A stretch of 52,291 nt of DNA from Nemertoderma westbladi (lineage: Eukaryota > Animalia > Xenacoelomorpha), in contig JAUCBJ010000210.1 of NCBI GenBank assembly GCA_032718475.1, positions 1-52,291 of the forward strand, given 5' to 3'. Under the pieces are notes generated by a model. It was not told the origin of the DNA. It did not search any database and worked only from the letters and a program-made list of their open reading frames with translations. Both the position numbers and the translations under genes were made by a program. This document shows, in pieces, positions 1 to 24,104 of the stretch; the first letter of the stretch is position 1, and every line of letters starts with the position of its first letter.

Positions 1-382
1 GTTCTGAAATTACGCAATAATTAATTTTACCCATAACAACTATTAATGTACTGTACCAACATACAGCACCACAAGTTTGCTGCCTAGGGCCTATACCTAC
101 TAAATAAAATTCGGCTGTGCCATCTTTCAGTAACATCTACGATGTCAGTATAATATCAAAGCTGTAAAAAAATTAATATTATGATGAAACATATATGTTT
201 CGCAAACAATTCGAATTCACAAACAATGTTAATATTGGACTAGACTGTGAAGTTCTGTTCATATAAGAGTGCGATTTAAATGGAATTGTTGGAAAATGAA
301 ATCCACAAGTTACTAATTGTTAGGCTGAAAGTAAGGAGAGGGGAGGGGGGGGGGGGGGGTAGAATTCCTTATTAAAGATTAG

Positions 383-429
383 CCCCAATGTCCCTCTCGT
401 CAACCCAAGGTGTTGACGGGACATTGGGG
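383..429. repeat. inverted repeat / hairpin
   Basis: ccccaatgtccc..gtcaac..gttgac gggacattgggg, self-complementary arms. Confidence 0.7.
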
Positions 430-2464
430 ATCTTGTTTAGTACCAAAAATATTTCAAATTTTATTTAAAACCAACAAAAAAATAAAATATCAAAGAATGA
501 AAACTAAATTTTACTGTGTAACAAAATACTTGGTTAATATTACTGTAAGTATTTGCATTAAAATAAAAAATTTATTTGCATAATTATCACAAAAGCACCT
601 TTTTTATTCTTTGCTTTTGTAAATACGCTAAAAAATATATCAGTATTTGTATAAAATGCAAAATAATAAATTAAATAAATTTTAATTATGAAATATAACA
701 ATATATTTATGGTATATAGCTATAGCTCTTTATACTATTAATATATTTATATAATATAATTAATATTATTATTATTTAGTATAATATATTAAAGATTCAA
801 TACTAAATTGTAAATTTAACTTGTTCAATTAATAAAATAATTTCTGCACATGGCAGTATAGGACCACAAACTTGATAAATGGGCATACATTTAAACCAAT
901 ACGACGTCACAAATGTTAACACTGTAACTGAATATAGGCACAGGTTATATATAAGTCAATCGATAGACAATAACAAAATTAAAAAGCATTAAATACCGCG
1001 GTAGTTTGGTATCCCTACCCGGATGCGGTTTGGATGAAACGAAGACATGAAAGTTAAAAACTCAACGAACCAAAGCGTGTCTGGTCGACTGATGGACACC
1101 GAACCACTCGCGAATTTAAACTGGGGATCCCAACTCACTCCGGAACGCAACCCATACTGCGATAATAACTCATCGCTTGCTGTTGCATTGAATTGCTCTA
1201 CCGCAGTTGACCCACGGAAGTTTTGCACTTTGTATTTCAGTATTTCGTGCCGCTGATTCTAGAGCCTAAGATTTCATCCGGTAACCGTTGCAAGTACCAT
1301 AAACCACGCGATGTAATCGTACCGATACCACAAAGTCTCTTTAGTTTCACCTGCATGTTTGCTTTTAGCGAAGTCCTGCTTACGAGGCCAAGGGCCGGAA
1401 GTCGCGATGATAGAGTTCCGGTACGAGCATCTCTCGACCTTCGCCGTCCAGAAATATGTGAGAACATTATCGCAAACGTACTGGCACCCAGTCAGCCAGT
1501 GCCAATTTGTGTCGTCAACGTTTAAGACTCAGCAGTCATCTCTTGCAGAAGGAGATGAATCGTTAGGATAAGCTGCAAGTGATCCTCACCTCATAGGGAT
1601 CCTCGGAAATAAGGATTACAACGTCTGAACTCGAAGTTTAGAACAGCAGTATAATGCAGGCAGATTGTATAAAATAAGCAGTAGGTAGGTAGGTGGAACT
1701 TAGAACAGAGGGAAGTCGGACTCCTGAGTTTACTAAAATCCTAAGGTTATTAGCCCCTTGCGTGACTGCCGGTTTTGTCTGAGTTCGCTCGACCTAGTAG
1801 TAGTACGGTCACTGTGGAATTGCTACTGAAAGAACAGTTGATATGAGTAAACAGAAATGCTAGGCATAGGGGCCTAGTTCAATCACAGTACTGCAGTACC
1901 GGTATTAGACTCACTAAAAATTAAAAAATATTCAATGAAATACTGAAATAGGCCTAATTATACAACAACCATCAGAACGTACTGCCGTACAGTCGTACCG
2001 AACCTGATAACCTGCAGACACGCCTAGAATACAAGTACAAGGTATAGTATGTAGAATGTAGGTATGGCAGTAAGGCCTGTGGAAGTATTGGCGGCGGTCT
2101 GGCGGTAGCCTACTGCAGCAGGCGTTCCAGTTGTACCGCAGACAGGTAATACAGTAATAGGAAATCAAACACTAACTGCTGAACTGCTAGGCCTAGCAGA
2201 AGAACAGTGCCAGTACACATAAGGCTGCAAAGTCAATGCTAGCAGCAGCATTCAAAGAATGATACCACACAGCCAGCTGTGAGTTCATTATCCTTGCCTC
2301 ACACTAAGAGTGTTGCTGCTGCTAGGATACAAATTATCTGTTATTGGCTAGAGCTGTACCATTGGTTGGCTTTCATGTTATGATATTCAAATGGTTTGAT
2401 GGAGGGAATTTCAAAATAGTCAAATAATACAACAATAATGAAATTTTTAATATGATGTGCAATT

Positions 2465-4203
2465 ATAAAAATCGCTGTAACTCTGGTGCAACACGACCGT
2501 ATTCGATGAAATTTTCATTGTTACGTACGGTAATTAATGCGTTTACAATTGCTATACTCAATATATTTATAATCGGTATGATTTTTAAACTATAAGAGTT
2601 TAAGAGCCGGGAATTGCCAAATTGTGGCCACGTAAGCCAGATTTGACCACAAAATTGACCAGGTTCGTTCAACTCTTGAAAATTTTGGAATATGTCAATT
2701 TTGTTCTACTATCATGTTCTATAAATGACCGAAGTTAAAAAAAATATAATTCCTAGGAAGTTGTTTTATTTTTGATAAATATGTAATTTTATGGTGAAAA
2801 TTGGTTAATTTTGTTAAAAATGAGTGAAAATTTGACGGTTTGGAGTAAAATTGGGTGGGTTGGGCCAACTCATATAAATTGTTGCCAGTGTCATTTTTCT
2901 TATCCTAAAACGTTCTTTAATTGAGCACAGTTTTAGAAAATATAATTCCTAGGAAGTTCTTAAACTAAAGCTCAGACTTTCAAAAAGACGGTCATTTAAC
3001 GGACTTTTTTTATTTGTCTGTCATACCTACACATATCGTTGAAATCGAAAATGGCATGCATATTCGGATTCAGCACACAAAAATGTACCTATATAGTATA
3101 TTTTGAGGTAATCTGAGGCTAAAATAAAAAAAAATGAAAAAATGAAAAAAAATTTCGCCAAAATTTGCCAAACTTCCAAAAATACTTAACTTGCTCAGAT
3201 TTTCATGAAATTTGGTACGGATGTGCCCAAAGCAATTCTAAGAAACTAATTTGAAGGATTTACGGAAAAATGCAATTTAAGCTGATATATCGCATTTTGA
3301 GTGCCTAATTTTAGGCTAAATTTCAAGAAAATACAGATTTCCTAAGTTTGGCCCTTATTTACTACATGAAGCAAAGACTTTTTGTATTAACATTAAATGG
3401 ATAACATGTAGAGCTATCTTATCCATCTGTGATGTTAAAGTTTCAGAAAAATATAAACAGACAATTCGGAGAAAACCACTTTCTACCAAAACCTATTTTG
3501 TCAACTTCCAAAATTACCATTTTTTGGCCCCAATTTCCGGCCCTTAATATTCAGGCAACGCACAATATCAATAACAGTAATGGAACTCCCATCTTCCCTC
3601 TATATAACGCAAGTGGAACGGTTTCGTTCTAATTAAAAGATACAGAGTTATAACGATTTAAAAATTGTCAAAAATATCCAAATTTGGCCCAAAATTGGCC
3701 AAAAGTTAAATTATTGGCATACTGTTAAATATTTTTGGCCAATATTTTGACCCGATGAACAACTGTATTGGATATGTATTCGGTATGAGTTTCAATCGAA
3801 ATAGCCAAGCTGCTTTGGTGATAGCGAGAAAACAATGTAAAAATTTACCATTTTGATAATTTTTGGGTAAAATTAAAATGTGGCCAAAATGGCCAAATTT
3901 GGCTAAACGAAATTTTTTAATGAAACTTGCAAATTTATCCGCGCACAAAGTCTCCGGAGAACATTTGAAGATTTCAGTCACCTTCATCCCGAATTTCACC
4001 AATTAGTGCTAGAAGTTTCCAAATTGGGGCAAAAATCCACTTTTGGTTGCCAATTTGGAAATGTTGGGGAACTAAATTGAAAAAACAAAAGCGTACAAAA
4101 TTCTTAGAATAACAAAAACTACAAACGTGGCAAATTTCAGAGAATATAATTCCTAGGAAGTTGTAAAACGCCCCGAGTAAGCTCCACTTTCTATATACTA
4201 ATG
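2465..4203. mobile_element. AT-rich non-coding repeat, probable non-autonomous DNA element (family unresolved, ends approximate)
   Basis: 20-mer aatataattcctaggaagtt at 2743, 2939 and 4143; many ttggcc/aaattt motifs; no credible ORF. Confidence 0.4.
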
Positions 4204-4299
4204 TTGGAACGCCTACGCCCGGTGTGGGAGAATCCTCACGAAGGATCCTCCCACGTTGTGTTGTTTTTAGGTTTACATAAGAACCGCATGGAAGCGGTC

Positions 4300-4455
4300 C
4301 ACCTCGCAGCCGCCTAGCCACCCTCGCAGCTAGTCACGCAGTCAGCCTCGCGGTACGCAGTCAGCCTCGCAGCCAGCCTCGCGGCACGCAGTCAGCCTGG
4401 CGGTCGGTCACGCAGTCAACCAGCCAGCCACGCAGCTAGGCACGCAGTCAGCCTG
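4300..4455 (+). repeat. degenerate short tandem repeat (cacgcagtcagcct-like) downstream of the TBP-like gene
   Basis: repeated cgcagtcagcct / cgcagccagcc units. Confidence 0.75.
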
Positions 4456-4561
4456 TGAGAGTCATACTTATTCAAACGAGGTTAGTTTTCCCTATCTACC
4501 GATAGATTGATTGAAAAATAATAATGTTTAATTTTCACCTTCTAATCACCAACACCTAAAG

Positions 4562-5095
4562 TTACAACACCATAACACCAAACATTAATAAATAATTAAC
4601 AAGTTTACTAAATATAGGGTAATAAATGTGAAATTTGCTAGGTGAACACATTAAAGTACATTTACCAGTATGAAAGCAGCAAATGACTACGGTATTATTT
4701 ATTCTTATTTTGCAATTATTAAAAATTTCAGGTTCATATATAACTTGAAGTTGCACATTATCAAAGACAACATAAAACCCGGTATTGTTTATCAATAACC
4801 TATAGACTACAGACTTAATACTAAAAATATAAGTACATAAATTAACAGATTTTAAAATCAAATTAATACTAGTTTTATCAAATATATGCTTTTTTACTTT
4901 TTGGAAATTATACTTACTGCCTAATAATGTAATACGACCATTTTTAAATATTAATAATGTGGCACTAAATATCTTATATATAAACTGATTTGGTTTGAGT
5001 ATGTGTTTACCAGATAATTGATTTTTTAATTCTTTAAAATTAATCACTGACACTTGCTGGCAACTTACATTCTTATTAACTATCTGATAGTTCAT
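4562..5095 (-). CDS. divergent TATA-box-binding protein (TBP)-like protein
   Basis: Two TBP half-repeats: ATLLIFKNGRITLLGSK (cf. LIFSSGKMVCTGAK) and YEPEIF...CCFHTGK (cf. YEPELFPG...LIFVSGK); 177 aa, core-domain size; intronless. Confidence 0.8.
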   Translation of the reverse strand: MNYQIVNKNVSCQQVSVINFKELKNQLSGKHILKPNQFIYKIFSATLLIFKNGRITLLGSKYNFQKVKKHIFDKTSINLILKSVNLCTYIFSIKSVVYRLLINNTGFYVVFDNVQLQVIYEPEIFNNCKIRINNTVVICCFHTGKCTLMCSPSKFHIYYPIFSKLVNYLLMFGVMVL

Positions 5096-8000
5096 TGTTT
5101 GGCTCCCGATAAATAGGTATATTGTTTTTCTTTACAGGTTTCTCAACCTTTGTTTGATAGTGACCCCAGGGAAGCGAATGATTTTTATTAACCCAATAAA
5201 GTTTATCGTCAAATGCGCTGAGAGCAAACTTATCTCGTGCTACAGTGTACACTTTGTGTAATTGACTCTGAAATTGGTGCGTTTCCTTGGAAATTTCTAA
5301 GTTATCCTTATATGCTCTTAAATAATCTTCGTGGCAAATATTTTTATCCACGACAGCTCTTGTTATTCCTTTCGCCCGTCGTATATTGGAATCATTCCAT
5401 TCCAAAATTGAATATAATTTTGGTCTTAAAAATACTGCTTGTTTAATCTCTCGTGAGGCTAGTTCATCTTTACAGTAATAGAGTCTGGATTTATTTTTAT
5501 CGCTATAGAGAGGGTGATCCTTGGGGTAATTGGATGTATCTAAAATATTATTTTTAATTAAGGCTTTTAAAAAATTATTCTGCGATGTATTATAGTAACA
5601 ACCTATTAAAGAGTCCGTATCTGATGCTACAATTTCAATTCGACAGTTTAATTCTTTCTCAATAGGTAGCAATTTATCGTAATACAGCTCATACATATCC
5701 AATTTAGCCAAGTCCAAGACAGTACTACCTACATAGACCGGCTTATCGAGAGTTACAGAGTCTTTTACTAATAAGTGTCCCGATAAGGAATCATTATAAA
5801 TCATGAAATTTTCGTGATTTATACGTTTGACTAATAAATCGCATTTCTCTTTACTATTAGCGATACGAAAGTTGCATCTGTCCCTTATCTTCTCTATCGT
5901 TTTTCCAAATAACGAATTATTCAGAAGCTTCGCAACAGCTGTTTCAATGTAAGTTTTTGACTGTCGCCTTTGATTAATATTAAAATCTATATAGGGTTTA
6001 AATACAAAGTCTTGATGGAAAGAATATAATTTATGGAGCTTAGTAACAATTAAACCTTGTTTTATATAAAATTTTAACAGTTTTAAATTTACATGATAGA
6101 ATTCCTTATCGAATTGTGTCAACATAAGTTTTGGAGCACACATCTTATAATTGCTATTAGTACCTCTTTGTTTACAAACATGATTATATTGTTCCCTCAT
6201 ATATGGTGAAAGCATTGTCTCATTTATACTTAAATGTTCTGGGGCTAAGGGTAGTTCTAATGTACGATCATGAATATCTTTGGGATATTTCAAATCGCAA
6301 ATTAAGAAAAACCCAATATCCCCTTCAGTATCAAGATTTGTCAAATAGTTTATTAGTTCTTCTGGAGCAGCATTCTCTAAATATGTAACGTTGACTTGTT
6401 CAAAACCTGAAACAGGTAGCTTTTTACTTAAATTACCCGAATACAAGGAATTAAAATCTATATTGAAAATATGACACTCTTCCTTGCTTGGATCATAATT
6501 ATCAGTATCTGGTATATTTGATTCTATGTAATGCTTTCGACAGAATGAAACCCCACCTCTAATAGATGCTTCAAAATCTCTATATGTTTGGTAATCTTTT
6601 ATTAATGCTAACTTACATTTATTGTATTTCAGGGCGCAATCATAAGTGAAAGCTGCGATACTACAATAATAAACTACTTCTAATTCGTAGTTTTGTCTAC
6701 ACACTCTCCTAAAGTTCTCAAATATATCAGCGAGGAGACAAACATCGAGTTTTAAGTATGCTAAAAGATAATCCTTGAGATTTGTACACTCAAACTGACT
6801 CCATGATGCGTTGGCAAAACTATATTCCTCGGGAGTACAGGTATTTTGTGTTAATTTACTATAAAATTTGTCTATTGATGGTAATTTCGAATCATTGAAT
6901 TTATTTAAATCTGTCAGATACTCGTAGGGAAATATACCTTTTCGTTTAATTGTTGCATTATTTAAATTTGGATAAAAATATTTCATTTGCTGTTCAGTAA
7001 TTGGTAGAACTGATGTTATATCCTCGCTGTCTATATCCTTTGTTGAACAATCAACTAAAGTACTTAGGGAAAAGGATAAAAATTGATATGTGTCTAAGAC
7101 ACGTAGCTCGATCTTAGTTTTTTCATCTTTCACCGGTATATGCATGCTTAGTGAAATATACCTTTCAGAATTTTTAGGGATTACCTTTATATCCCAATCG
7201 GAATATCTATTGTTGGTAAAACCAACTTGTAAAAGAAAATGCAAATCGTAGTGATTGCAGTTGTGTGCAGCGAGTATATACATGTGTCGTTTCAACGATA
7301 AAGAGCGGTTACATGCGTTACAAGCGGCTGCTATATAGTTACCAGTAATATGTGAGTGATGTTTATTTTTCTCAGACTTATCCTTAAATAAAACATTGCA
7401 ATAAAAGCAAGTTTTAGCTTTCCAAAAACTTAACTTATCTACATCGTTAAGTATAATCTTCTCTCGTGTATGGGTTTCTGCCCACTTATATAATTGGGTG
7501 ATGTCATTATATACAGAGTCTAAAAAGTCTTGAATACAGTTGTTGTCGATTGTTTTTGTAAAGGTCTTCAAATAAAATTTTGGTGGATTGATTAATTCAC
7601 TACTAGGAACAATTAAATAACTTACAGCGCATGGAATATGATTCTGAATAAATTTACTGTTGGTGGCTGGCTCCAAAATAGATTCTATGTCAAAATATAT
7701 TACAAACAATGCTGGTAATGTTCTGTCTAAATTTCTAAAGCTAATGTGAGTTCTTTTTTCAGACGGTAGCTTCTCAACTTGACTTTTTCCTCGATAACAA
7801 GCAAGACGGTGACGTTCTAGAACATTTCTGTAGAAATGCGACAAACACCGTTCGCAATATTTCCTACATCTAATATGCTTACCTGTTGTATTCATCAAAC
7901 GATTCAAGTTAGTTATGCAAACATAATGTGATTGTTTACTCGTATTCTTATTTTTTACAAGTAATATATTCAATAACTCTTTATCTGGAGTGATTTTACT

Positions 8001-9086
8001 AAATGGAGCCTGTCTTAATATAGATACTCGATTGTTGTCGTAGAGTAATAAATTAATTATATATGCTGAATTCTGTTTTTCAAAAAGTTTAATTGCAAGC
8101 TGCCATTCTGTTGGATAATCATTTTTCCCATTGTGAAAAATGAAATGACTCATATAATTTTTGTACTGCGAAGTACGATATTTGTTGTTCTTCACTTTGC
8201 TACTAAATTTTGTGGCTATAATTGCCCATTTAAAACAATCATTATCAGCCGTTTGTATATTTATAACACATCGTTTACTCGATAGAGCCTTAGGTAACTC
8301 CATATAACCGTGACCTTTATATTCCAGTGACTTACACTTGGATTCAGCTACTTTAATTTCCACTATTAATAAAGATTTAACGCGCCACCCTGAGCCACGA
8401 GTGTTAAATATGGCTATTTTTTGCATTAATTTTTCTAGTACATACTCAAACCATGTGTCAAAACTTTCATGTGAATCTACGGTATTAACTGAACCACCTG
8501 GAGAACTAAAATAGAAAGTTTCTTCTTGGTCACCCTCTGAAAAATGTGATCGATACATGAGTATATTCACACCTAGCCAGGGTCTAAGTACATTCATTTC
8601 GCTAAGTTTTCCTAATAATAAGTTTTTAATATGGGGTAGAATATGAACTATTGATGAATGAATATCAGGAAAATCTTCATCATTCGGAAGATTGTAAACA
8701 TAGATTTCTAAACGGTTATCGTGTGCGGATCGTTCGATGCTAAAAATTGATGGACCTTGACCAGATTTCAGTCTTTTTCTAGATGCTACAGTATTGTTTT
8801 GGTTCCGTTGTGGTCTAACATGATAATAACGTTGGTGACAGTCGTGACGTAAATAATTCTCATATAAATACTCTTTATTACAAGTAGGGAAAGTTTTTTC
8901 ATACACGCAAAGCTTCATTTCTTTACATCCCGTAGTTGATTCATGTCGTTTGCATATTTCTTCACGTGAACATTTCACATGACAATTAAAACAATTGTAT
9001 TCTTCAAAATGCGACTTCAGATGAGATAAATAGTTATGTTTAGAAATTTGAAGAGGACAAAATGGACATTTCAATTGTTTATCCAT
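5076..9086 (-). CDS. protein-primed-type family B DNA polymerase (Polinton/Maverick/Adintovirus-like) with N-terminal zinc fingers and an endonuclease-VII-like insert
   Basis: Uninterrupted 1336 aa; GSGW, exo motifs YFDIES, HN...YDLHF, YLKLDV; pol motifs DFNSLY, KLLNNSLFGK, SDTDS, RPKLY, AKG; N-terminal CxxC...HxxxH. Confidence 0.93.
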   Translation of the reverse strand: MDKQLKCPFCPLQISKHNYLSHLKSHFEEYNCFNCHVKCSREEICKRHESTTGCKEMKLCVYEKTFPTCNKEYLYENYLRHDCHQRYYHVRPQRNQNNTVASRKRLKSGQGPSIFSIERSAHDNRLEIYVYNLPNDEDFPDIHSSIVHILPHIKNLLLGKLSEMNVLRPWLGVNILMYRSHFSEGDQEETFYFSSPGGSVNTVDSHESFDTWFEYVLEKLMQKIAIFNTRGSGWRVKSLLIVEIKVAESKCKSLEYKGHGYMELPKALSSKRCVINIQTADNDCFKWAIIATKFSSKVKNNKYRTSQYKNYMSHFIFHNGKNDYPTEWQLAIKLFEKQNSAYIINLLLYDNNRVSILRQAPFSKITPDKELLNILLVKNKNTSKQSHYVCITNLNRLMNTTGKHIRCRKYCERCLSHFYRNVLERHRLACYRGKSQVEKLPSEKRTHISFRNLDRTLPALFVIYFDIESILEPATNSKFIQNHIPCAVSYLIVPSSELINPPKFYLKTFTKTIDNNCIQDFLDSVYNDITQLYKWAETHTREKIILNDVDKLSFWKAKTCFYCNVLFKDKSEKNKHHSHITGNYIAAACNACNRSLSLKRHMYILAAHNCNHYDLHFLLQVGFTNNRYSDWDIKVIPKNSERYISLSMHIPVKDEKTKIELRVLDTYQFLSFSLSTLVDCSTKDIDSEDITSVLPITEQQMKYFYPNLNNATIKRKGIFPYEYLTDLNKFNDSKLPSIDKFYSKLTQNTCTPEEYSFANASWSQFECTNLKDYLLAYLKLDVCLLADIFENFRRVCRQNYELEVVYYCSIAAFTYDCALKYNKCKLALIKDYQTYRDFEASIRGGVSFCRKHYIESNIPDTDNYDPSKEECHIFNIDFNSLYSGNLSKKLPVSGFEQVNVTYLENAAPEELINYLTNLDTEGDIGFFLICDLKYPKDIHDRTLELPLAPEHLSINETMLSPYMREQYNHVCKQRGTNSNYKMCAPKLMLTQFDKEFYHVNLKLLKFYIKQGLIVTKLHKLYSFHQDFVFKPYIDFNINQRRQSKTYIETAVAKLLNNSLFGKTIEKIRDRCNFRIANSKEKCDLLVKRINHENFMIYNDSLSGHLLVKDSVTLDKPVYVGSTVLDLAKLDMYELYYDKLLPIEKELNCRIEIVASDTDSLIGCYYNTSQNNFLKALIKNNILDTSNYPKDHPLYSDKNKSRLYYCKDELASREIKQAVFLRPKLYSILEWNDSNIRRAKGITRAVVDKNICHEDYLRAYKDNLEISKETHQFQSQLHKVYTVARDKFALSAFDDKLYWVNKNHSLPWGHYQTKVEKPVKKNNIPIYREPNNELSDS

Positions 9087-9632
9087 CTCTTTATTATCCT
9101 AAAAACAATTTAAAATTAATATGAATATTGTTATATATATATAATCAAAAAAATTCATAAGCTACTCAACACAAATAAAATATAATATCTAAACTTTAAT
9201 TAATTTAATATTTTCAGAATGAGCTCGATTGAATCAGTTGAGCTCTTTATATATATTTCAAGTTTCTACTTATACCAATCAATCATAAATAACAGTTACA
9301 TTGGGAACTAACATCATAAATAAAGTTGCTTTTACAACTGAATTCTTTATAATAAAATTAAGTCTAAACCAAGATGTACATAATGCGTTTTTAATTTTCA
9401 TTGATAAAGTAGGTTTTACATGCTAATGTTTTATTATGGTGGTGTAAACTCATGCATTTACATGCGAATGTTTTATACATAATCCCGTGCTCACATTAAA
9501 CTATCACCAATATTTACTCTATAAAGTCACCTTTACATGCAAATACTTTATAATAATCATGCTTTATGTTAAAAAGTTACCTTTACAAGTCAGTGTGAAA
9601 CTGAAAAAGAAAAGTCTCTAGTTAATAATAAA

Positions 9633-10676
9633 TCAATCTGATACTGCTTTTATATGTTCCTTATTGTAATCTGCTACCTCTTCACTTGCTTTTGTAACTT
9701 TTATTTTCTTTGTAGGTATAGAATCATTGTTGGGAATGGAAGATGTTTGAGATGTAGATCTGCGCTTTCTATCACTCGATGTCTCTTTGATGTATGTCTT
9801 TGGATTAAATGTGGATGAAACTACTTCTGGAAATGACTTATTAACCTTAAACTTCCAAGTTGGTTGATATAGAATCGTGAAACCGTCTGCTATATCAGTT
9901 GATGAAACCTTTAACATCATATCGTAGAGAAACTCTATATGTGGTATGTCTTTATCGTAATGTAACTGTAAATATTTGCTTTCCTTGTCTGCAATAATTA
10001 CTTTTTTTTCTTGTACATTTATTTTTACTTTAAGTCGGTCAGATAAAGCTTTATCGCTCGTATCTAGCTCTGAAAAGACACCTTCGTTACTAATTTCATA
10101 ATTCCATTCATACCACAATGAATTTACTTCTGATGCTGTTAAGTTAAACCCATTATAATACCTAAGACCAATAGCATCAGAATATCTAGCTGAAATCTCC
10201 CATAGTCCCATATAAGTCGTTCCTTTATATTTGCTTACAAAACCAACAAAAGATGGGTTGGTTAAATTAACAACAGAACACTGATTTATTATTTCGAGTG
10301 GTGGTGATAACAATTCTAATATTTCTGTCTTACTCTGAAGCAATAAATTAATGAGTGATTTGTTTAGAATTTGACATTTGCCTTGCTTCTGAATATATAC
10401 ATTTTCAGTAATAACACAGGTGGAAATATTTAACTTTCCTCTTGTAAATTCTATATTAGGATAAATATTACCTCTTGAAACTGATGATTCCTTTTGTCGG
10501 TTGATTAATATTTCTAAGACGTCTAGAAGGTAGAGTGTATCCCAGTAAGAGAAGCACGTTGTTACATTGCTATCACTTGAGTGTAATATAAAGTACTTGC
10601 CATAAACAATACTACAGGTATATTTATTACATGTAAATTTCCAAGTATTGCTTGAAGTTTTTTTAAATAAATCCAT
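9633..10676 (-). CDS. 347-aa protein with a PC4/Sub1-like ssDNA-binding motif and basic C-terminal tail
   Basis: aa ~143-187 FVSKYKGTTYMGLWE...NGFNLTASEVNSL resembles PC4 VRDFKGKVLIDIRE...KGISLNPEQWSQL; RKRR and KKIK near the C-terminus; same strand and AT-richness as the polymerase. ORF is solid, domain call tentative. Confidence 0.6.
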   Translation of the reverse strand: MDLFKKTSSNTWKFTCNKYTCSIVYGKYFILHSSDSNVTTCFSYWDTLYLLDVLEILINRQKESSVSRGNIYPNIEFTRGKLNISTCVITENVYIQKQGKCQILNKSLINLLLQSKTEILELLSPPLEIINQCSVVNLTNPSFVGFVSKYKGTTYMGLWEISARYSDAIGLRYYNGFNLTASEVNSLWYEWNYEISNEGVFSELDTSDKALSDRLKVKINVQEKKVIIADKESKYLQLHYDKDIPHIEFLYDMMLKVSSTDIADGFTILYQPTWKFKVNKSFPEVVSSTFNPKTYIKETSSDRKRRSTSQTSSIPNNDSIPTKKIKVTKASEEVADYNKEHIKAVSD

Positions 10677-11496
10677 AATTAGAATGAAAACTATTTTGAA
10701 AAATAAAAACTAAATAAATGATTATTAAAATGTAAAACTTCTGTTTATATGGTTGCTTTAATACAACAGAGTGACTTACAGTGAGGAATATAGTAGCTTT
10801 GTGTAACAGATGCAACGTGTACAGCTAAAATTATTACATTAGCGTGAGTTAGAGAGTGAAATAGCAGTAACGAGTAACAGATGCAACGTGACCAATGTTA
10901 GTCCTATCAATCTAACTTATATTCAACTTAGTTGACTGACCAGTCACATCGATAAAAGAAATCGATTATTATTAATAGTCGAATTAATGTATTCTATGCT
11001 ATAGTAATTATGATAAGGGACTAGATGCTATTTATAAACATCTGCTACCAGTGATGAAGATGAAGAATTCAATGACTATGGTATAACTCATATATTTATT
11101 GCCTTTTTCTCTCGAGGTTGGATGGAAAAGTGAGTTGAGAAATGTGGCAAAACACTAGGGTACAGCAACGTGGACAAGTAGCGAGTGGGAGGGTGGATAG
11201 GAATTCATTGAGTTGACAACAATCAATCAATAACAAACAACACTAAAGAGAGAGAGGGAGAGAAAAAGTGAAAGGAAGAGTAACCATCATAGCTACGGTA
11301 GGTATACGATAGGATGGTTAGGTTAGGCTACGTACTGTACAGTACAATATCATATCATATCAATCATCGATTGAATATTTTGTTATAACTCGGATATTTA
11401 TCGCCTTTTTCTCTCGTGGTTAGATGGGAGAGTGAGTGGCGAGTTGTGGGGGGTTATATTGGTCCCGAGTTCGAATCCGGTTGAATATTTTGTTAT

Positions 11497-11866
11497 CTGA
11501 AAAATTGCGATTTGAAAAATAGTAGAAATTACCTATAGACACCCTAGCGTCTGTAAAATAAAGGTTGGTGAATACGAAAATACTGGTTGCTGAAAAATAG
11601 CGAAAATGAAAAATAGTAGACGTTACCTGTAGACACCCTAGCGTCTGTAAAATAAAGGTTGGTGAATACGAAAATACTGGTTGCTGAAAAATAGCGAAAA
11701 TGAAAAATAGTAGACGTTACCTGTAGACATCTCTAGCGTCTGTAAAATAAAGGTTGGTAAATATGAAAATGCAATGGTTGCTGAAAAATTGCGATTTGAA
11801 AAATAGTAGACGTTACCTGATGCTAAGTGTAGACACCCGAACACCTGTAAGATAAAGGTTGGTGAT
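11497..11866 (+). repeat. ~94-bp tandem repeat, about 4 copies
   Basis: unit tgaaaaat.gcga...tagtagacgttacctgtagacaccctagcgtctgtaaaataaaggttggtga; starts near 11498, 11591, 11685, 11782. Confidence 0.9.
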
Positions 11867-12125
11867 TGGAGGAAGGAGTAGCGAGGGGGACTAATAACGC
11901 CTCTAGCGGAATATGCGGGATCTTGGGAAGTTACCATGGTAACGGTTGAAATGCTGACATCTGATTGGTTGAAATAATAACGACCACTGCTAATGGTTGA
12001 AATGGTGGCTTCTGATTGGAGGAAGGAGTAGAAATGGATGGTAATGATGGGCTATGGGTGACCATGTGCGGAGGGGCTAGCATCCTATACTACTGCTGGG
12101 TCTATTCACCCCCGCCTCTCCCTCT

Positions 12126-12273
12126 ACTACTGCGTGGCCTACCAGGCCCACCTCGGGTTGGCTCAACCCCGCTACCTCCTGCCTACCAACTACGTGGCCT
12201 ACCAGGCCGCCGTCGGGTTGGCTCAACCCCGCCACTTCCTGCCTACTAACTACGTGGCCTACCAGGCCGCCGT
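12126..12273 (+). repeat. ~60-bp GC-rich tandem repeat, about 2.5 copies, with internal palindromes
   Basis: cgtggcctaccaggcc x3; cgggttggctcaaccccg x2. Confidence 0.85.
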
Positions 12274-12570
12274 CTGCCGGGCTATACACATCTGACGCGT
12301 TCACATTAATAGCACCATTCCCAATATTATTTGTTAAGTCGATTAAATTATTAGAATTTGAAACGGGATTATTATTTAAATTATTTAAATTAGAATTATT
12401 ATTATTTTCAAAATTTAAATTATTATTCGAATTATTTGGATTATTCTGAATATTTGGATTAATATTATTATTTGAATTTAAATTTAAATTACTACTACCA
12501 GGTAAAATATTATTTGCTGCAATAAAGGGATTAGGGTTATTTACTACGGTACTATTAATACCAACATTTC

Positions 12571-13536
12571 CTAACGTACTACTACTACCCCCCCCCCCCC
12601 CCCCCCCCCGCCCGTACGGTTACTGTACGTACTGTACGTGTACCGCACGCCCTGTTCTTTTGCCTCACGCTCTTCGCATTCACTCTCTTGCTCCTTCCCT
12701 CTCCCCATTATCCGGTCTAATTCTTTCACCCTTAATTTATATGCCAGATTTATCTTCCGCATCCGTCTTTCTTTTGCGGAGGATGTAGCAGACTTATCGG
12801 TTGCGACGGACTTCCGCCGCCCCTCCGTCCTACTAACTTTCCCCCGCTTTCCGGGGTTCTCGCTGACCGACGAGACCGAATCCTCGGAGCTAACCTCGGA
12901 TTCGCCCTCGTGCGGTCCCGCCCAACCCACTAACTTAACTTCCCTGGCATCGACTAAGTATGGCCCTATGTACACTGCACCAGGCCCCATACCCCTACGT
13001 TCCCATAGCCCAAACAGTTCGATGGCAACCCCTCTCGCTCTCTCGCTGGCTAGTTCTCCCTGCCCAGAACGCACTAGGTAATCAAAGTATCTGTTCGACT
13101 CACCTAGTCGTCTCCTCAACTTCACCTGGTCTATCTCAGCCCCTTCTTTGGCTTCCTTCAGTTGCTCCCGGGTCGCGGCGTAGGCTCGTCGGAGCCGGAT
13201 GACCCCGACGTCCTCGTCGCCGACATCTCCTTTCTCCCTCCGGGTCCGGCGTTGTACCGTCGGCTCCACTGTTGCCGTTCCGGTGGGCCGTTCGTCGCTC
13301 TCGGCCTGTGGCTGGCCGGCGACATCGGCATATCGACCGCCGCCCTGTGTCGACTCGTCTCTCTCCTCTCCCAACTCGTCCTCTCGCTGTAGACGGCCCC
13401 CCTCGTCTCGGATCGCCGGATGGCCCTTTCTCGATGGGTCCGGCATTGTGGGTTTATACCGTCTAGTCGCGGCCTCGCGGATCGTTAGATCGCCGTCCGG
13501 GGTCCGCGGCGGTGTCGTCTCTCCTGACTGACTCAT
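12571..13536 (-). CDS. 321-aa charged, low-complexity ORF of unknown function
   Basis: ATG-initiated ORF in a GC-rich block, R/E/G-rich; the end runs through a poly-C tract; no recognised domain. Confidence 0.4.
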   Translation of the reverse strand: MSQSGETTPPRTPDGDLTIREAATRRYKPTMPDPSRKGHPAIRDEGGRLQREDELGEERDESTQGGGRYADVAGQPQAESDERPTGTATVEPTVQRRTRREKGDVGDEDVGVIRLRRAYAATREQLKEAKEGAEIDQVKLRRRLGESNRYFDYLVRSGQGELASERARGVAIELFGLWERRGMGPGAVYIGPYLVDAREVKLVGWAGPHEGESEVSSEDSVSSVSENPGKRGKVSRTEGRRKSVATDKSATSSAKERRMRKINLAYKLRVKELDRIMGRGKEQESECEEREAKEQGVRYTYSTYSNRTGGGGGGGGVVVVR

Positions 13537-14232
13537 CTCGCTGGGATGTGGTGGCTAGTCTCCAACCACTGAGTTTAACTAGGGCGGTAGCTCTGATTCA
13601 ATCACTGTGACGGGATCCACGAAGGATCCCGGTTTATCCGGGTTGTCGATCTACGCGTCCCCGCCGTGTGTGAAAGGTAAAAAGAGTCTGCGTTGTTCGT
13701 CGTATATAATGTTCGGGCATATAGATAGATATAGATAATATATTGTAATGTAAAGCTGTGAATAATAGTATATGGAAGGCGGGAGATGGTGATTGAAGTC
13801 CCTGTACTTCCCTAGCTAAACTAACCTAACTAGCACCAAATAACACACTGAGATAACTGATTGCTGGTGCCTAATAATATACTGCACGGTTTGGCCTTGC
13901 TACAGTACCTAGCCGATGCTTCCCCCCCATTGGCTAATATCCCTGTTGGCGCCCTTTGGAGTGTTCCCATTCACTCCAGCTATTCTCTCTCTGTTAGGGG
14001 TTTGGCCCCTGACCTTTATTGTTCGTTTCTCCTTCCCACTTTATTGGGGTGACACGAGGTTGATATTGGTAATCAACCTCGTGCTCCCAATATTGCTTAA
14101 CGGCTCACTTTATGGGGTGTTAGCGGAATTGATTCGCTAACAAGGAAAACAAGGAAAAACAGAAAGGGGAAAAGAGGGAAAAGGGAAGAAAAAAAGAAAA
14201 AAAGAAAAAAATGTGAAAACATTAGACATATT

Positions 14233-14518
14233 TGTAGAGACTCTTACGTTCTAGTACTGTATGTGGTGACGGGAGTGAAGGAGGATTACCGAAAACTACA
14301 GTATTTGGAGTCTGTCAGTCAGTTGTTAGATTATTATGTACTGGTACGGTAGGATTCAGCTAGTATGATAGTACAGTAGTACGGTGTCAGACAGAGAGTT
14401 ATGTTATTCGGGAGTACAGGAGTATATATGTTATTCTTATCTTATTACATATTATATTAGATATGACTGTAGGAAGATGAGTGTCATTATGATATGAGGC
14501 GGGAGAGGGTGGTTTACA
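14233..14518 (+). repeat. 5' LTR (286 bp)
   Basis: tgtagaga...tttaca; 2 mismatches against the 3' LTR by eye. Confidence 0.95.
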
Positions 14519-14621
14519 ACTTCCCACCGAGATTAGCGACTCGACTACACTTACGGACCGCGTGGAAATTTAAATAGGCCTACCTACCGGACTGGTAGAA
14601 ACATTTTTTTTTAAAAACACT

Positions 14622-16198
14622 ATGGCGATGGCGAACAATTACGGGTTGAAGGAAGTCCTGGAAGGGTTTACATATGATCAGTTACGGGATATCACTCGGG
14701 ATATCGGCGGCGATATTAGCGGATTACAGAAGCAAGATTTAATCTCGTTTCTTGTCGGTCAACCTCGGGATTTATTGTCTCAATACGGTATAGGATTTCG
14801 GGATTCGAGACGAGGTGGCGATCCAGGCGGTGGAGGAGCTGGTCCAGTCGGAAATGTTATGTTAGAGAACATTTTACAACAGCAACAACAACTGATTTCA
14901 CTGGTCCTAGATCAACAACAAACACAAACACACGCTCTTACTAAAGTGATGTCGGACTTTGCTGCTACGGTTGCAAACAATTCGGAAGTTCATGATCGGG
15001 ATAAACCACCGAAACCGATGTTGCGTCCACTGAAGGAAGATGACGACATTGAACATTTCTTAATTCTCTTTGAACGGACGGCGAAGCTCCAGGGTTGGTC
15101 GAAATCGGTCTGGGCGACACAACTTGGAGGTCGGTTAACGGGAAAGGCGTTAGCAGCGTTTTCATCATTATCTGGGGATGAAGCAGATAATTACGACTTG
15201 GTTAAAGCAATTATACGTGCGCGGTACGATATTAACATGGAAGCACTACGGCTGCGGTTTAGACAAGATAGGAAAAGGATAGCGAATCACACAGTGAATT
15301 TTCAGAGCGGATTAGAGAAACTTTCCGACGATGGGTTCAGGAACAAACTCTCGATGTTGGGGAAGAGGAAATTTCGCTGGAAGAACTCATTTTAATGGAA
15401 CAGTTCTTAGCATTCCTTCCTCAGAATTTACAGGTCTGGCTCAGGGATCACAAACCTCGTAGCCTCAGCCAAATAGCGAGCCTTGCTGATGAATATGCGT
15501 CAGCGAGACGATACCCGACGGATCCTTCCCGTTTCAATCGGAACAGAAACTCAAATAACTCATCTAATCCACACAGTTACGGTAATATCAGACATAATAA
15601 TTGGGGTAATAACCAGTACAATCGCAATAGTACTGGTTCCAATAATAATACCAGTACTGGTACGGATAGAAGTCAACAGAATCGGTTACCTTTTTGTAAA
15701 GTTTGCGACTCAATGGGATTTCGAAATCTATTTCATTGGAAGGAGCAATGTCCTCGAGATAAACTGTACGGGCCTAACAGTAATAACTGGACAAATACAC
15801 GGAGAAATATGGATAATAATGGTAGCGGAGGTGGGGGAGCCCCGAATAGACCAAATACCGGTAGTAATCCCTCAGGACGGCCTACTGACACCAATGGTAA
15901 TTATTCTAATAACGGAGTACCAAGACAGCAGGGAAGCGCAAATCCTGTAATGCGGAAAGTAAACCCAACAATATTAAATGATTTATTTGGTGATATTGCG
16001 GTTGCTAGTGGTAGTTCAAACCCTAGACTTGGTCCTAAATGTGTATATAATGTTCAAATTGGGGATTCCGTTTTTCCAGCTTTGATCGATTCAGGCTCAC
16101 AAGGAACCCTAGCTTCAGTGAATACAGCAAAGAAAATTATTGCGGCGGCAGGAACAAAACGTACAGATGTTTATACAGGTCCCATATGCTTGAGTTAA
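14622..16198 (+). pseudogene. gag: Gypsy gag (SCAN-like capsid domain, zinc knuckle) and start of protease; frameshifted near 15275
   Basis: DDIEHFLILFERTA..W; EQFLAFLPQNLQVWLRDHKPRSLSQIASLADEY (SCAN-like); CKVC..H...C; ALIDSGS protease. Confidence 0.88.
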
Positions 16199-19100
16199 AG
16201 TCAGCGACACAAGACAGGTTAGATATTTGTGCAAGATTTTCGGTTTTAGTGACAGTTGATAATGTTTCCTCACATACAGAAATTTCTGTTGTTCAAAACT
16301 TTGACCAGGACTTTGTGATTGGAACAGATTCGTTTGAAGGGCTGGGAATTCATATTTCAACAGTAAAAACAGTTTTAGTTGGAGAAAACATTTCAAATAA
16401 TTTGTCATATATGGCTATGAATAAAGTATCTGAAGTTGTTAATAGGTGGCGTTCCCTAGATTCTCAAGATAATGTAATGAATATGGGACGGGGTGAGAAT
16501 GTTGGTACTTGTGCGTTATTGGCTGGGAAACAAATACCACCTTGTAGTACAAGTATGTTGAAGATTAAAGTGAACAATTTTAATTCCAATGGGAATTCAA
16601 AGTTATATTTATTTGAACCTAATCAAAGTGTTTTGGAAGATCTTGGATTATCTTCCAGTAATGCAATTATTCAACCAGAAACAGATGGTTATGCGCGGGT
16701 CGGAGTGTTAAATTTAGATAAGTTACATAAAGCGATGCCAGAAGGTATTAATGTTGGAACATGTGTACAACTTGATGCGGCTGAGATAAAATCTGTTTAT
16801 AGCGACAACTTAGCGGAAGGTGTTACAGCACTTATCACAGATAAAGGTGAAAGGGAGATTGAGTTAGAAAGTCATGTTGATTTTACAGACTCTGATCTTA
16901 ATTAGGGTGAAAAAGATAGTTTATTAAAACTTCTTAAGGAATATGATGATGTATTCCAGTTATCGGATGATGAAATCGGTAGAACTGAAATAGCAGAACA
17001 CGACATTGACACTGGCAACAGCAGTCCCTTCAAACAGGGTGTCCGTCGAATCCCTGAGAAACTCAAAGAAGTAGTGGCAATGGAGGTTAATAGAATGCAT
17101 AAAATGGGAGTTATTAGACCAGCTCACGGACCTTGGTCTTCACCTATCATATTGGCACCTAAACCGGATGGATCTATTCGATTTTGTGTCGATTATCAGA
17201 AATTAAACGCCATTACAACTAAAGATAACTTCCCATTACCCCGTACAGAAGAAATATTGGATCAACTTGGATCATCAAAATATTTTTCTTGTTTAGACCT
17301 TGCCAGTGGATATTGGCAGCTTCCACTAACGGAGGAAGCTATTCCAAAAACGGCATTTGCATGTTCAGCGGGATTCTACGAATTCATTGTTTTAGCGTTT
17401 GGACTGTGCAATGCGCCAGCAACGTTTCAAAGAACAATGGAGAAAATACTTAAAGATGTGGTAGTAAATGGAAGAAAACCATGCTTTGTCTATATAGATG
17501 ATGTACTTGTTTGTTCACCGGATTTCGATAGCCACTTGGAAGATGTGGCAGCAGTATTAAATCGGCTACGGGAGGCAAATTTAAAACTGAGAACTCGAAA
17601 GTGCAAGTTTGGTAGATCTAAAATTAAGTTTTTAGGACACATCGTTACACGAAACGGACTACTTCCAAATCCAGAAACTGTAGACAAAATCATAAACTTT
17701 CCAGAACCAAAGAATCTAAAGGAACTTCGACGTTTTCTGGGATTATCGAATTATTATCGAAAATTTATAGAAGGATACGGAAAGATTGTCCGACCTTTGA
17801 CCTCATTATTAAAGAAAAATACGGCTTATTGCTTTGGGATGGACCAACAATTGAGTTTTTGTGAAGTTAAAGAACGGTTAATTACAACACCAGTATTGCG
17901 TTACCCAGATCATTCAAGACCATTTATTTTAGAAACTGACGCTTGTGAAACCGGATTTGGGGCTGTTTTATCCCAGATAGCTGATGATGACAGTCAATTA
18001 CACCCAATAGCATATGCTTCAAGACAGCTGACAAACTCTCAACAACGATATACTTCAACCCAGTTGGAGGTATATGGAATTAAATGGGCTTGTAATCATT
18101 TCAAACCATATTTATATGGAAGAGCCTTAACAACATTGGTTTACACGGATCACGCAGCAATAAAAGGATTACTTTTGGGTCGTCATGAATTAAAAGGCCC
18201 ATTGGCACGTTGGGTGATAGATCTAACTGATTATATTTCGCCCGAGAATGTTTTCCATAGACCGGGTAAAGCTAATACGAATGCAGATGTTTTATCTCGA
18301 ATGCACGGAACTTGTACTGCTGTTAATGACGGGCCTGAGAGTTTATCTGAATCAAAAGAAGAGACAGAGATAAAGTCGGATACCGAAACAAACTTAAAGG
18401 AAGAGACATATGTTATACAAAGTCTACAATTGGTAGACCCTTTATATAAAGCATTAATTGACTATCATCAAATGGATGCGTTACCTGATGATGAAGATTT
18501 ATTTCGCCAAATGTCAACCAAAAGAAACTTGACAGCAGTAATAGATGGATTGCTTTATAAATTTGATGATATTGGAAAATCACGCCAACCTCGTTTGGCA
18601 GTACCAGAACTTTGGAGACATAAAATACGGTCAGAAGTACATGGAGGACGGTTTGGGGGACATTTATCAGATCATCGGATATGGTCTATACTAAAATTAC
18701 AATATTGGTGGCCAAAAATGCGAAAGGATATTTTCAAATGGACTCATTCATGCTTGAAATGTGCTACTCGGAATCCGGGACGTGCAAATAAACCGCCATT
18801 AATGCCCTTACAAGTAGAGGGGCCATTCGATCGAGTGGCAATTGATATACATTCGCTCCCATTAACCCAGAGAGGAAATAGATATTGTGCAATAATCAGT
18901 GATTACTTGACGAAATGGGTTGAGGCCTATGCAATACAAGATGAAAATGCAACAACAATTGCTGATTGTTTTGTTGATTATATATCTCGTCACGGTGTTC
19001 CACGGAAAGTTCTTTCAGATCGGGGAGCAAACATTTTATCAGAAGTATTTACAAATGTGTGTAAATTATGTGGAATGAAAAAGATCAACACCAGCGCTTA

Positions 19101-19730
19101 TCATCCCCAGACAGATGGTTTAGTAGAGAGATTTAATCGAACATTGTTATCCATGCTTTCGAAAACTTTGGATCGACATGAAACGGATTGGGATGATGTT
19201 TTATCTTGCTTATTATTTGCTTATCGGACTTCGGAGCATAGTTCTTCAAAGGAGTCACATTTTTACTTACTCTACGGGAGAGATGCTAGATTACCAACAG
19301 ATACAGCTCTGAATTCCACAAAAACTATTTACCAAATAGATTTGGATGATTATAAAACTGAACTAGCCGCGAACCTTACATTTGCATGGTAACTTGCACG
19401 GGAAAACATTGAAAAGAAACAAGACCAATATAAGAAGCAATATGACAAGAGAACTCAACCAATTAAATATAACGTTGGTGACAGGGTATTTTTATACTGT
19501 CCAGATACAGTGAAAGGAAAATTACATAAATTCGGTCGGCCATTCCATGGTCCTTATCGTTTATTAAAGGTCACAGGGAATAATGCTGAAATTCGCTTGG
19601 TTGACCATCCAGCCCCAGTTAGTTGCAATTGAGCGGCTAAGACCTTGCAAACCAGAGATCGAAAATACATCTTTTACTGGAGATAAAAGGAAATATACTC
19701 GACGTCGCCCTGAGGCCAGGGCTTGTTTGC
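16186..19730 (+). pseudogene. pol: Gypsy pol (RT, RNase H, integrase, GPY tail) with in-frame stops at 16903 and 19390
   Basis: RFCVDYQKLN, LDLASGYWQ, YIDD, ETDAC, TDH, HHCC zinc finger, SDRG, DGLVERFN; FHGPY after the 19390 stop. Confidence 0.95.
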
Positions 19731-19745
19731 AAAGCGGGGGGGATG

Positions 19746-20031
19746 TGTAGAGACTCTTACGTTCTAGTACTGTATGTGGTGACGGGAGTGAAGGAGGATT
19801 ACCGAAAACTACAGTATTTGGAGTCTGTCAGTCAGTTGTTAGATTATTATGTACTGGTACGGTAGGAGTCAGCTAGTATGATAGTACAGTAGTACGGTGT
19901 CAGTCAGAGAGTTATGTTATTCGGGAGTACAGGAGTATATATGTTATTCTTATCTTATTACATATTATATTAGATATGACTGTAGGAAGATGAGTGTCAT
20001 TATGATATGAGGCGGGAGAGGGTGGTTTACA
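19746..20031 (+). repeat. 3' LTR (286 bp)
   Basis: near-identical to 14233-14518. Confidence 0.95.
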
Positions 20032-21259: not shown

Positions 21260-22450
21260 ATGGCAATGGACCCACGCAACCACCACATCTTCGTCCTGCG
21301 CAGCTCCCCACCCGCATTCGACATCGAATCCGAAAGGACAACTTGGGAACTATGGAAAGATGAATGGGACGCCTTCCTCGCCACCTCGGGTCTTCTCAAC
21401 CTGTACGTGTCCGACCCGGCTACACCTCCAGTCGCCGTTGTAACCGAATACCTCAACCGATCCACTCTACGTCTACACCGCGCTGCCCTCACAACAGCGT
21501 TCTCTCGCGCGACTAACGCCGTCGTCAAGGGGCTCGCCCTTACCGCAGCAGAAAACGCGAACTCGGAGACCGTGATTAACCGGTTGGGTCAGCACATGGA
21601 CGGCGGAACCAACAAACGCGTTTACCGTCAACATCTGGCCCGACGCCACCGTCTTCCGGAAGAGAGTCCGGAATCGTTCCTCGTTGCTCTACGCGATATA
21701 GCTACCAAGTGCGACTTCGCCCCAATCGCAACCAAGGAAGCCCACACGGAGGACCGCCTCCTGGACCAATTCACGTCCGGATTCGTCGATAAGGAGGTTA
21801 CCGAGCAACTTCTTCGGCTTCCTAACGATTCCACCCTTGGCGACGCACTCCGACTAGCACAAGCCATCTGGGCAACCCGCAAAGACGCGGCATCCCTTGC
21901 CCACCCCTCGCCCATTCCTTCTGCAGTCACCAGTCGCATCGGAGCGACACTGCGACGCATGCAGCCACCGCCCAAGGAACGGTCGAACTCGAAGTGCCCG
22001 CAATGTGGATATCCCCCTCACCTGGCAGGCAAACGTTGCCCGGGTGCTGCGGCGCACTGCCGGCACTGCAACCTGGTCGGCCACTACGACCGCATGTGCC
22101 GCAACCGCCCCACTCACAACCCAAAGACAAACTCAACCGATTGGGTACCAGACAATGCCCGGAATGCCCCAGAGTCCGCCAGTCACGCCCAAATATGGTC
22201 GACAATCCTGGAGGGACTCGACTTTGGAGCCATCCCAGCCGTCTCCGCGACCGAGAGACTCGAATCCCTAGAGACAGTGACCATCGGATTCCAGGTCACC
22301 AAGAACCCCTCACACGGAATCCCCGAACTCCAATTCCTGCCTGATTCTGGAGCTAATGTGTCCACTATCCCATGGCGAACCTTCAGGGCGTTCGGTGGTC
22401 GCCTCGAGAACCTCCGCCACCCCGACGGCGAACCAATGACGAACCACTGA
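21260..22450 (+). pseudogene. gag: Mag-like gag with two zinc knuckles plus aspartic protease start
   Basis: WELWKDEWDAFL; CPQCGYPPH...CPG...CRHCNLVGHYDRMC; LPDSGANVS. Confidence 0.85.
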
Positions 22451-24102: not shown

Positions 24103-24104
24103 AG

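What the first reader, a model, noticed from the sequence alone, without database searches (positions are those of the whole stretch)
4562..10676. Minimal virus-like module: pPolB + TBP-like + PC4-like genes, with no integrase or capsid
Seen: three co-oriented, intronless, uninterrupted AT-rich ORFs; the polymerase stop overlaps the TBP-like start by 20 bp. Known: this polymerase type normally sits in Polintons/Adintoviruses together with a retroviral-like integrase, packaging ATPase, protease, capsid genes and long TIRs. None of those is visible here. Inference: either a distinct small self-replicating element (plasmid- or satellite-like) carrying replication factors plus mimics of basal transcription factors, or one segment of a recently endogenised virus. 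The intact 4-kb frame, among otherwise decayed TEs, suggests recent insertion or selection.
Basis: partly seen in the sequence, partly recalled or inferred. Interest (0 to 1): 0.88.

Follow-up and report, generated by a model that had tools for sequence, protein, structure and literature searches.

The report
High-copy Polinton replication arm with mini-TBP
Three intact genes (a self-priming DNA polymerase, a small TATA-binding-like protein and an unidentified protein) form part of a very abundant virus-like repeat in an animal genome; it is likely the DNA-copying half of a Polinton/Maverick element whose integrase and capsid genes lie in sibling copies, and it appears to be transcribed backwards into a spliced non-coding RNA.

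Summary
The three co-oriented intact ORFs and the 20-bp overlap are real. The polymerase keeps all exonuclease, polymerase and vOTU motifs. The TBP-like label holds (Pfam E 9e-9). The PC4 label does not: ORF3 scores at background. No Polinton integrase, ATPase, protease or capsid gene and no long TIR lie in the window. New from public runs: the stretch is not a lone recent insertion. Its contigs are about 65-300 times deeper than neighbouring single-locus contigs in two studies, the deep unit runs at least 1.6 kb past the given coordinates, and listed polymerase variants are mostly synonymous (17 of 28). A third run shows GT-AG joints antisense to all three genes, with non-coding exons. Mini-TBP genes also occur in fetched Polinton-like loci that carry integrase and virion genes, so TBP does not mark a separate satellite; this scan noted TBP-bearing and split Polintons on other DNA before. 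Best reading: the replication arm of a high-copy, TBP-bearing Polinton family of a deep polymerase clade. Whether siblings are full-length or a stand-alone segment could not be tested (no genome held).

The parts
4562..5095 (-). Mini-TBP (two-repeat TATA-binding-protein-like, 177 aa, no N-terminal extension)
   Evidence: Pfam TBP E 8.9e-9, 35.5 bits over cut-off 22.9, two stretches; each half hits TBP alone; NCBIfam archaeal TBP models weak; collinear with mini-TBP of L038 at 18% identity
5076..9086 (-). [quoted passage not shown]
   Evidence: 115 homologues; vOTU C284/H387, Exo I D466/E468, Exo II N609..D614, Exo III Y777/D781, Pol A D877, Pol B K1053, Pol C D1156/D1158 match the commonest residue of 30 homologues (motif names recalled); EndoVII weak; 17 of 28 listed variants synonymous
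9633..10676 (-). ORF3, 347 aa, unidentified; low-complexity Ser/Lys tail; PC4/SSB role is a guess from position only
   Evidence: No hit in Pfam, PHROGs, NCBIfam, PDB or homologue search; PC4 tests at background; AlphaFold pLDDT 33
9320..9556 (.). Three copies of a 20-36 nt motif in the ORF3-polymerase spacer
   Evidence: families D9 and D11
4294..4480 (+). GC-rich 12/19/31-nt tandem repeats downstream of TBP; holds the first seen exon (about 4350-4480) of the antisense RNA; left edge of what can be assigned to the element
   Evidence: joint 4478>6631 in run X4; donor checked
6633..6840 (+). Antisense exon inside the polymerase gene, stops in all three frames
   Evidence: joints in X4; canonical acceptor and donor, 3-6 stops per frame
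7763..7907 (+). Antisense exon inside the polymerase gene (an alternative donor lies at 8848)
9716..10008 (+). Antisense exon inside ORF3; its 3' end is not determined
   Evidence: X4 record of 292 nt, depth 291; acceptor and 4-8 stops per frame
10677..12330 (.). Right arm of the same high-depth unit: non-coding, with 69-nt direct repeats, 94-nt and 60-nt tandem arrays; candidate terminal-repeat region, right end not reached
   Evidence: depth in X2 and X3 stays in the thousands to 12330; repeats
12576..12586 (-). (AGT)3-type word like the Maverick end motif; candidate right terminus, uncertain
   Evidence: 2 matches in the window, 0.02 expected; motif described in PMC8097293 section 7; may instead be codons of an Asn-rich frame 12077-12619
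1796..1806 (+). Inverted partner of that word; only 12-13 nt match, no target-site duplication; probably not a true left end
12571..13536 (-). ORF4, 321 aa, GC 60%, no family hit; may or may not belong to the unit
   Evidence: not covered by laid reads
2500..4265 (+). Different repeat abutting the left edge, ending in a hairpin (4224-4254) and T-rich tail; Helentron/HINE-like by recall; left limit approximate
   Evidence: other copies diverge at 4239 (records 2 and 10); hairpin; internal repeats

Best explanation
This is an intact polymerase, mini-TBP and unknown-ORF block of a very abundant repeat family, likely the replication (early) half of a Polinton/Maverick whose integrase and virion half is missing from this copy. 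Shown: gene identities for pPolB and TBP, absence of the other core genes in the window, high depth, synonymous excess, antisense GT-AG joints. Inferred: the polymerase would copy a linear extrachromosomal form by protein priming after vOTU cleavage of its terminal protein; the mini-TBP would switch on late (virion) genes carried by full-length siblings; integration would have used a sibling's integrase. ORF3>pol>TBP point from a repeat-rich right arm towards where the centre of a two-module Maverick would be, and the copy stops against another transposon exactly there. The spliced antisense RNA would be read-through or a centre promoter firing across the early genes, most likely damping them.
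For: Motifs intact. Mini-TBP in 3 of 46 fetched loci that also carry integrase; L038 has TBP, protease, capsid, integrase, ATPase and pPolB. 21 of 23 scanned IMG/VR relatives carry integrase, A32 ATPase or capsid. Two opposed modules pointing to the centre, pol in one and integrase/capsids in the other, and TIR-less partial copies in the hundreds, are described for vertebrate Mavericks (PMC8097293). Element contigs at depth 3752-6495 against 21.5-32.5 in X3, 3204 against 25-50 in X2. No paired TIR or TSD here. A TBP with no late genes to act on implies a partner (inference).
Against: No sibling copy with integrase or capsid was seen; no genome is held. The polymerase sits in a 25-row clade that holds none of the 20 IMG/VR polymerases with known context, and the TBP-bearing loci score closer to the other clade, so the analogy is across clades. 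All three frames are intact, unusual for a random fragment. No high-depth loose end at the left edge is among the 24 of 476 listed (weak, contigs break at branches). One clade cluster has three contigs of 6.8-6.9 kb, a hint of short units.
Confidence: 0.55

Rival explanations
1. The unit is the normal form of the family: an integrase-less, capsid-less replication segment (about 9-11 kb) of a bipartite Polinton, or a satellite, that supplies polymerase and TBP and borrows integrase and capsid in trans from an element with the same ends.
For: Even per-unit depth from 4476 to 12330; intact frames with synonymous excess; Maverick-type end word in inverted orientation at 1796 and 12586, spanning about 9 kb without the inserted repeat; deep clade without a capsid-bearing member among fetched loci; unchecked scan notes of 9-kb polymerase-only segments in flatworms.
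Against: The inverted match is 12-13 nt, below the 46-1447 nt TIR range in PMC8097293, has no TSD, the right word lies in an open Asn-rich frame, and 1500-2500 has host-intron-like words; no partner was seen.
Confidence: 0.27
2. Most of the depth comes from free linear DNA (a plasmid-like replicon or a persistent virus) and the window holds one captured piece.
For: Depth ratio to single-locus contigs differs about twofold between X2 and X3; a 770-nt contig stands at depth 5288; the polymerase is predicted to be active.
Against: The same minor variants, insertions and an inversion joint recur in both studies, as for inherited copies; contigs drop rare variants, so homogeneity is no evidence.
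Confidence: 0.1
3. The block is cargo amplified by another transposon (the left Helentron-like repeat or the ORF4 element) or a tandem array, not self-replicating.
For: It abuts other repeats on both sides; ORF4 differs in composition yet the depth runs towards it.
Against: Other copies of the left repeat run into unlike DNA at 4239; synonymous excess points to selection on the polymerase; only one copy lies in the 52-kb window.
Confidence: 0.08

Closest known systems
Polintons/Mavericks of animals (adintoviruses; PMC8502044, PMC8097293, PMC11071308, passages read)
   Same: pPolB with terminal-protein region, vOTU and an inserted endonuclease domain; intronless AT-rich ORFs; multi-copy in an animal genome; purifying selection
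   Different: No integrase, ATPase, protease or capsid and no long TIR or TSD in this copy; polymerase at most 36-38% identical to anything found and outside the clade of the named insect and mite elements; carries TBP
TBP-bearing MELD/Polinton-like viruses (TBP named in a figure legend for non-animal MELD viruses in PMC8502044; loci L038, L058, L059 here)
   Same: Two-repeat mini-TBP of 150-180 aa in a pPolB element; shared YEPEIF stretch with L038
   Different: There TBP lies among virion genes or beside TFIIB; here it overlaps the polymerase stop, no TFIIB hit, 17-18% identity
Transpovirons and eukaryotic linear plasmids (PMC11071308 passages)
   Same: pPolB-type replicon without capsid genes
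   Different: No SF1 helicase fusion, no RNA polymerase, integrated among nuclear transposons, exonuclease intact
Adenovirus major late unit with tripartite leader (PMC5429599, PMC7851563 passages; its position opposite the polymerase gene is recalled)
   Same: [quoted passage not shown]
   Different: Exons here are 145-290 nt against 41-90 nt; no downstream late gene was seen joined to them; no sequence likeness tested

Membership tests
Polinton/Maverick | Protein-primed PolB with TP and vOTU domains | tested here: met
   domain layout from PMC11071308 passages; TP region judged only from one conserved motif
Polinton/Maverick | Retrovirus-like integrase in the element (PMC5499653 abstract start) | tested here: not met
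   none in the window apart from the Gypsy pol; sibling copies not testable
Polinton/Maverick | Packaging ATPase, protease, major capsid protein | tested here: not met
   profiles from 10, 6 and 5 relatives find nothing below E 0.2 in six frames; very divergent forms could be missed
Polinton/Maverick | TIRs of tens to hundreds of bases | tested here: not met
   only a 12-13 nt inverted pair
Polinton/Maverick | (AGT)2//(ACT)2 or (AG)3//(CT)3 end motif with 6-bp TSD | tested here: inconclusive
   motif pair at 1796 and 12586, flanks differ
Polinton/Maverick | Full-length sibling copies in the same genome | not testable with these tools
   no genome held; read-laying cap spent
TBP (PF00352) | Two direct repeats of the TBP domain | tested here: met
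TBP (PF00352) | Saddle fold and TATA binding | tested here: inconclusive
   single-sequence model pLDDT 36; binding not testable
PC4/Sub1 ssDNA-binding (PF02229) | PC4 domain profile match | tested here: not met
   no Pfam hit at E 10; no hit with a 6-sequence profile that does find L018's PC4; hhalign E 0.13 against 0.21 for the TBP control; best window 0.5 against 93-203 for leave-one-out controls, 36 of 60 shuffles as high
PC4/Sub1 ssDNA-binding (PF02229) | PC4 fold | tested here: inconclusive
   model pLDDT 33, Foldseek no match at E<=0.001
Adenovirus-type spliced late leader | Non-coding exons joined to downstream late genes | tested here: inconclusive
   non-coding exons seen; no joint to a coding gene among the 15 of 27 joints shown

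The most novel reading that the evidence does not exclude
The family is a capsid-less, integrase-less 'early segment' of a split Polinton, amplified to hundreds of copies, that supplies polymerase and a private TBP in trans, and whose spliced antisense RNA is an element-encoded early-to-late switch laid out like the adenovirus tripartite leader.
Probability: 0.15. Interest if true: 0.82.

Novelty: new variant of a known kind. Interest (0 to 1): 0.52.

Why it matters
How Polintons time their genes is unstudied in the papers I could search. A family at roughly a hundred or more copies, with an intact polymerase, its own TBP and a detectable multi-exon antisense RNA, is a ready system to ask whether these elements run an early/late programme like adenoviruses, their presumed descendants, and whether they can split into cooperating halves. 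If it is only a truncated copy, the value is a new deep polymerase clade and one more TBP-bearing family.

Tried and rejected
Homologue searches for TBP-like (none among 1.84 billion representatives) and ORF3 were blank. AlphaFold models from single sequences were unusable and the one fold search gave nothing. ESM Atlas was unavailable. PC4 label tested five ways and dropped; ORF3 internal repeats not significant. IMG/VR scans with the window polymerase, the TBP alignment and two clade members found no locus; the metagenome scan gave one 1.6-kb distant locus. Only 2 of 46 genome-contig loci belong to the window's clade and both are too short for neighbours. No TBP among 207 of 231 ORFs scanned from IMG/VR loci, nor TBP or PC4 in 5 records searched whole. 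No Rfam match in 1-14500. The look-up of sequencing runs listed no holder on record as RNA; X5 (organism B, RNA guessed) is shallow, depth 1-6, and was not used. A single recent insertion was rejected on depth. The 12-13 nt inverted pair was considered as true ends and left unresolved. Literature: no paper holds polinton+TATA-binding protein+PC4, polinton+PC4+pPolB or maverick+TATA-binding protein+protein-primed; none of the 15 and 20 papers listed for leader/antisense terms mentions polintons; searches showed no description of this trio in the listings. Figures and bioRxiv supplements were not visible and may map TBP genes in more elements.
Full report
Observation. The three minus-strand ORFs are at the stated places and uninterrupted, with a 20-bp overlap between the polymerase stop and the TBP-like start; GC is 24-32%. 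The window is animal-type DNA with spliceosomal introns, a host LRR exon, Gypsy elements and a piggyBac-type transposase. No whole genome is held.

Polymerase. Pfam misses the whole protein, but 115 proteins match residues 250-1310 at E<=1e-20, the best at 36% identity. Against 30 of them the vOTU Cys and His, Exo I-III and Pol A-C residues are all kept (motif names recalled; domain layout from passages of PMC11071308). An EndoVII-like insert is weakly detected. In a quick maximum-likelihood tree of 57 rows (37 of the 115 homologues chosen by rank or name did not all pass the length filter; 36 homologues, 20 IMG/VR polymerases and the window were kept) the window lies on a long branch in a 25-row clade (SH-aLRT 100) with a sea-spider protein and unnamed metagenome proteins; all 20 IMG/VR polymerases and the named insect and mite proteins fall in the other clade (midpoint root). 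Gene context for the window's clade could not be obtained: 2 of 46 genome-contig loci belong to it and both are short.

TBP-like. Pfam TBP scores 35.5 bits over a cut-off of 22.9 with two stretches, and each half hits alone. No close homologue exists in either protein library. Among 149 of 180 ORFs scanned from the 46 loci, three are mini-TBPs, in L038, L058 and L059; all three loci carry an integrase, L038 also protease, ATPase and a capsid-like ORF, L058 and L059 a TFIIB. The window protein aligns end to end with them at 17-18% identity; a profile of the three ranks it first among other ORFs but only at E 0.012. A TBP gene is also named in a figure legend of the adintovirus papers, for viruses from non-animal datasets (passages). 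So TBP beside pPolB is a feature of complete Polinton-like elements, not a mark of a satellite.

ORF3. No family, structure or homologue was found. One stretch looks PC4-like by eye, but every test put it at background while controls passed. The models were too poor to judge the fold. The PC4 label is unsupported, not excluded.

Missing genes and ends. 21 of 23 scanned IMG/VR relatives carry integrase, A32 ATPase or capsid (L023 and L025 not scanned). Profiles and tblastn from these find none in the window beyond the Gypsy integrase. There is no long inverted repeat. An 11-mer of the Maverick (AGT)n end type (PMC8097293 section 7) occurs exactly twice, inverted, at 1796 and 12576-12586, 0.02 expected; I picked the word after seeing the right copy, the match stops after 12-13 nt, the flanks give no TSD, a similar word occurs in the Gypsy LTR, and the right copy may be codons of an Asn-rich frame. 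On the left the block stops against another repeat ending in a hairpin.

Copy number and selection. Four runs of organism A from three samples and three studies hold 30-56% of the sampled words; the best may be the source. Laid on 4000-12330, contigs of the element have depth 3752-6495 in X3 and 3204 in X2, against 21.5-32.5 and 25-50 for contigs of the left repeat that run into unlike DNA: about 65-300-fold. The tool warns that depth is no copy number, so I read this as 'of the order of a hundred or more'. Depth stays high to 12330, so the unit is larger than the finding. Minor variants recur in X2 and X3. Of the 40 best-supported differences shown (of 560), 28 lie in the polymerase: 17 synonymous, 10 missense, 1 that would be a stop if alone, against 27% synonymous expected (binomial p 2e-4; a selected subset). 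Some copies have small indels or insertions, so part of the family is broken.

Antisense RNA. Run X4 (kind guessed as DNA by the tool) shows joints 4478>6631, 6837>7760, 7907>9716 and 8848>9716 at depth 98-384, absent from X2 and X3 (15 of 27 joints shown). All four have plus-strand GT donors and pyrimidine-tract AG acceptors, and the exons have stops in all frames. I infer that X4 is RNA and that a spliced non-coding transcript runs antisense to all three genes; a processed DNA copy is not excluded, contigs give no strand, start or end, and it is one run.

Mechanism. Most likely this is the early module and right arm of a two-module Maverick (layout as in PMC8097293), cut off where the integrase/virion module would begin. 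Protein-primed copying, TBP-driven late transcription in siblings and integration in trans are inferred from family knowledge, not shown. The antisense RNA is most simply read-through or a central promoter that damps the early genes; a leader like the adenovirus tripartite leader (PMC5429599, PMC7851563, passages; position opposite the polymerase recalled) is the bolder reading, with no joined late gene seen. The split-element reading stays open at about one in four.

Prior notes and literature. The scan's earlier unchecked notes describe TBP-bearing Mavericks in hundreds of copies and polymerase-only 9-kb segments in other genomes; none is on look-alike DNA. I confirmed only that TBP occurs in complete elements. 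Searches found no paper on the trio or on Polinton antisense leaders; two 2026 papers searched by term do not mention TBP or PC4; the nematode Polinton preprint was read in passages.

Verdict. Real and selected, but best filed as a partial or specialised copy of a Polinton-like family: it works like a Polinton's replication half and fails membership on integrase, virion genes and TIRs in this copy. New variant of a known kind; interest 0.52.

Noticed in passing
window 14230-20031: Young Gypsy LTR retrotransposon: 289-nt LTRs 99% identical, 4-bp target duplication, SCAN-like domain in gag, coding region split over four frames.
   Followed up: partly
window 12077-13536 (-): GC-rich ORF of 321 aa runs into a 26-nt poly-G tract, beyond which another frame stays open for about 170 Asn-rich codons with 20-aa repeats; possibly one gene shifted at the homopolymer; no family hit.
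   Followed up: partly
window 5043-5269: About a tenth of the depth in X2 and X3 shows an opposite-strand joint (5226/5269) and loose ends near the polymerase C-terminus and TBP start: a rearranged or inserted subfamily.
   Followed up: no
L058:13600-14797 and L059:8687-9906: Polinton-like loci in prokaryote bins with adjacent TBP and TFIIB genes, plus dNK and dUTPase in L058.
   Followed up: partly
L018:11373-11885 and L077 (next to L050): PC4-like genes in or beside Polinton-like loci.
   Followed up: partly
protein cluster of P0015 (P0119-P0121): Three separately assembled contigs of 6.8-6.9 kb carry a clade-mate polymerase, a hint of short units; other clade clusters reach 15-50 kb.
   Followed up: partly
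window 990-1600 (-): Stop-interrupted, coding-looking frames of GC 45% with no Pfam hit.
   Followed up: partly
window 28579-29508 (+): Exons of a host leucine-rich-repeat gene.
   Followed up: no
window 21260-24360 (+) and 49485-50972 (-): A second, GC-rich truncated LTR-type gag-pol and a 495-aa piggyBac-type transposase ORF.
   Followed up: no
window 39455-42632 and 26400-27450 / 45540-46160: A 162-nt 99% inverted-repeat pair 2.8 kb apart, and two inverted copies of a roughly 1-kb repeat 18-19 kb apart; several tandem arrays of 17-210 nt at 35-48 kb.
   Followed up: no
L027-L072: 46 Polinton-type polymerase loci sit in GTDB prokaryote bins, most likely eukaryotic-virus contamination of MAGs.
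   Followed up: no
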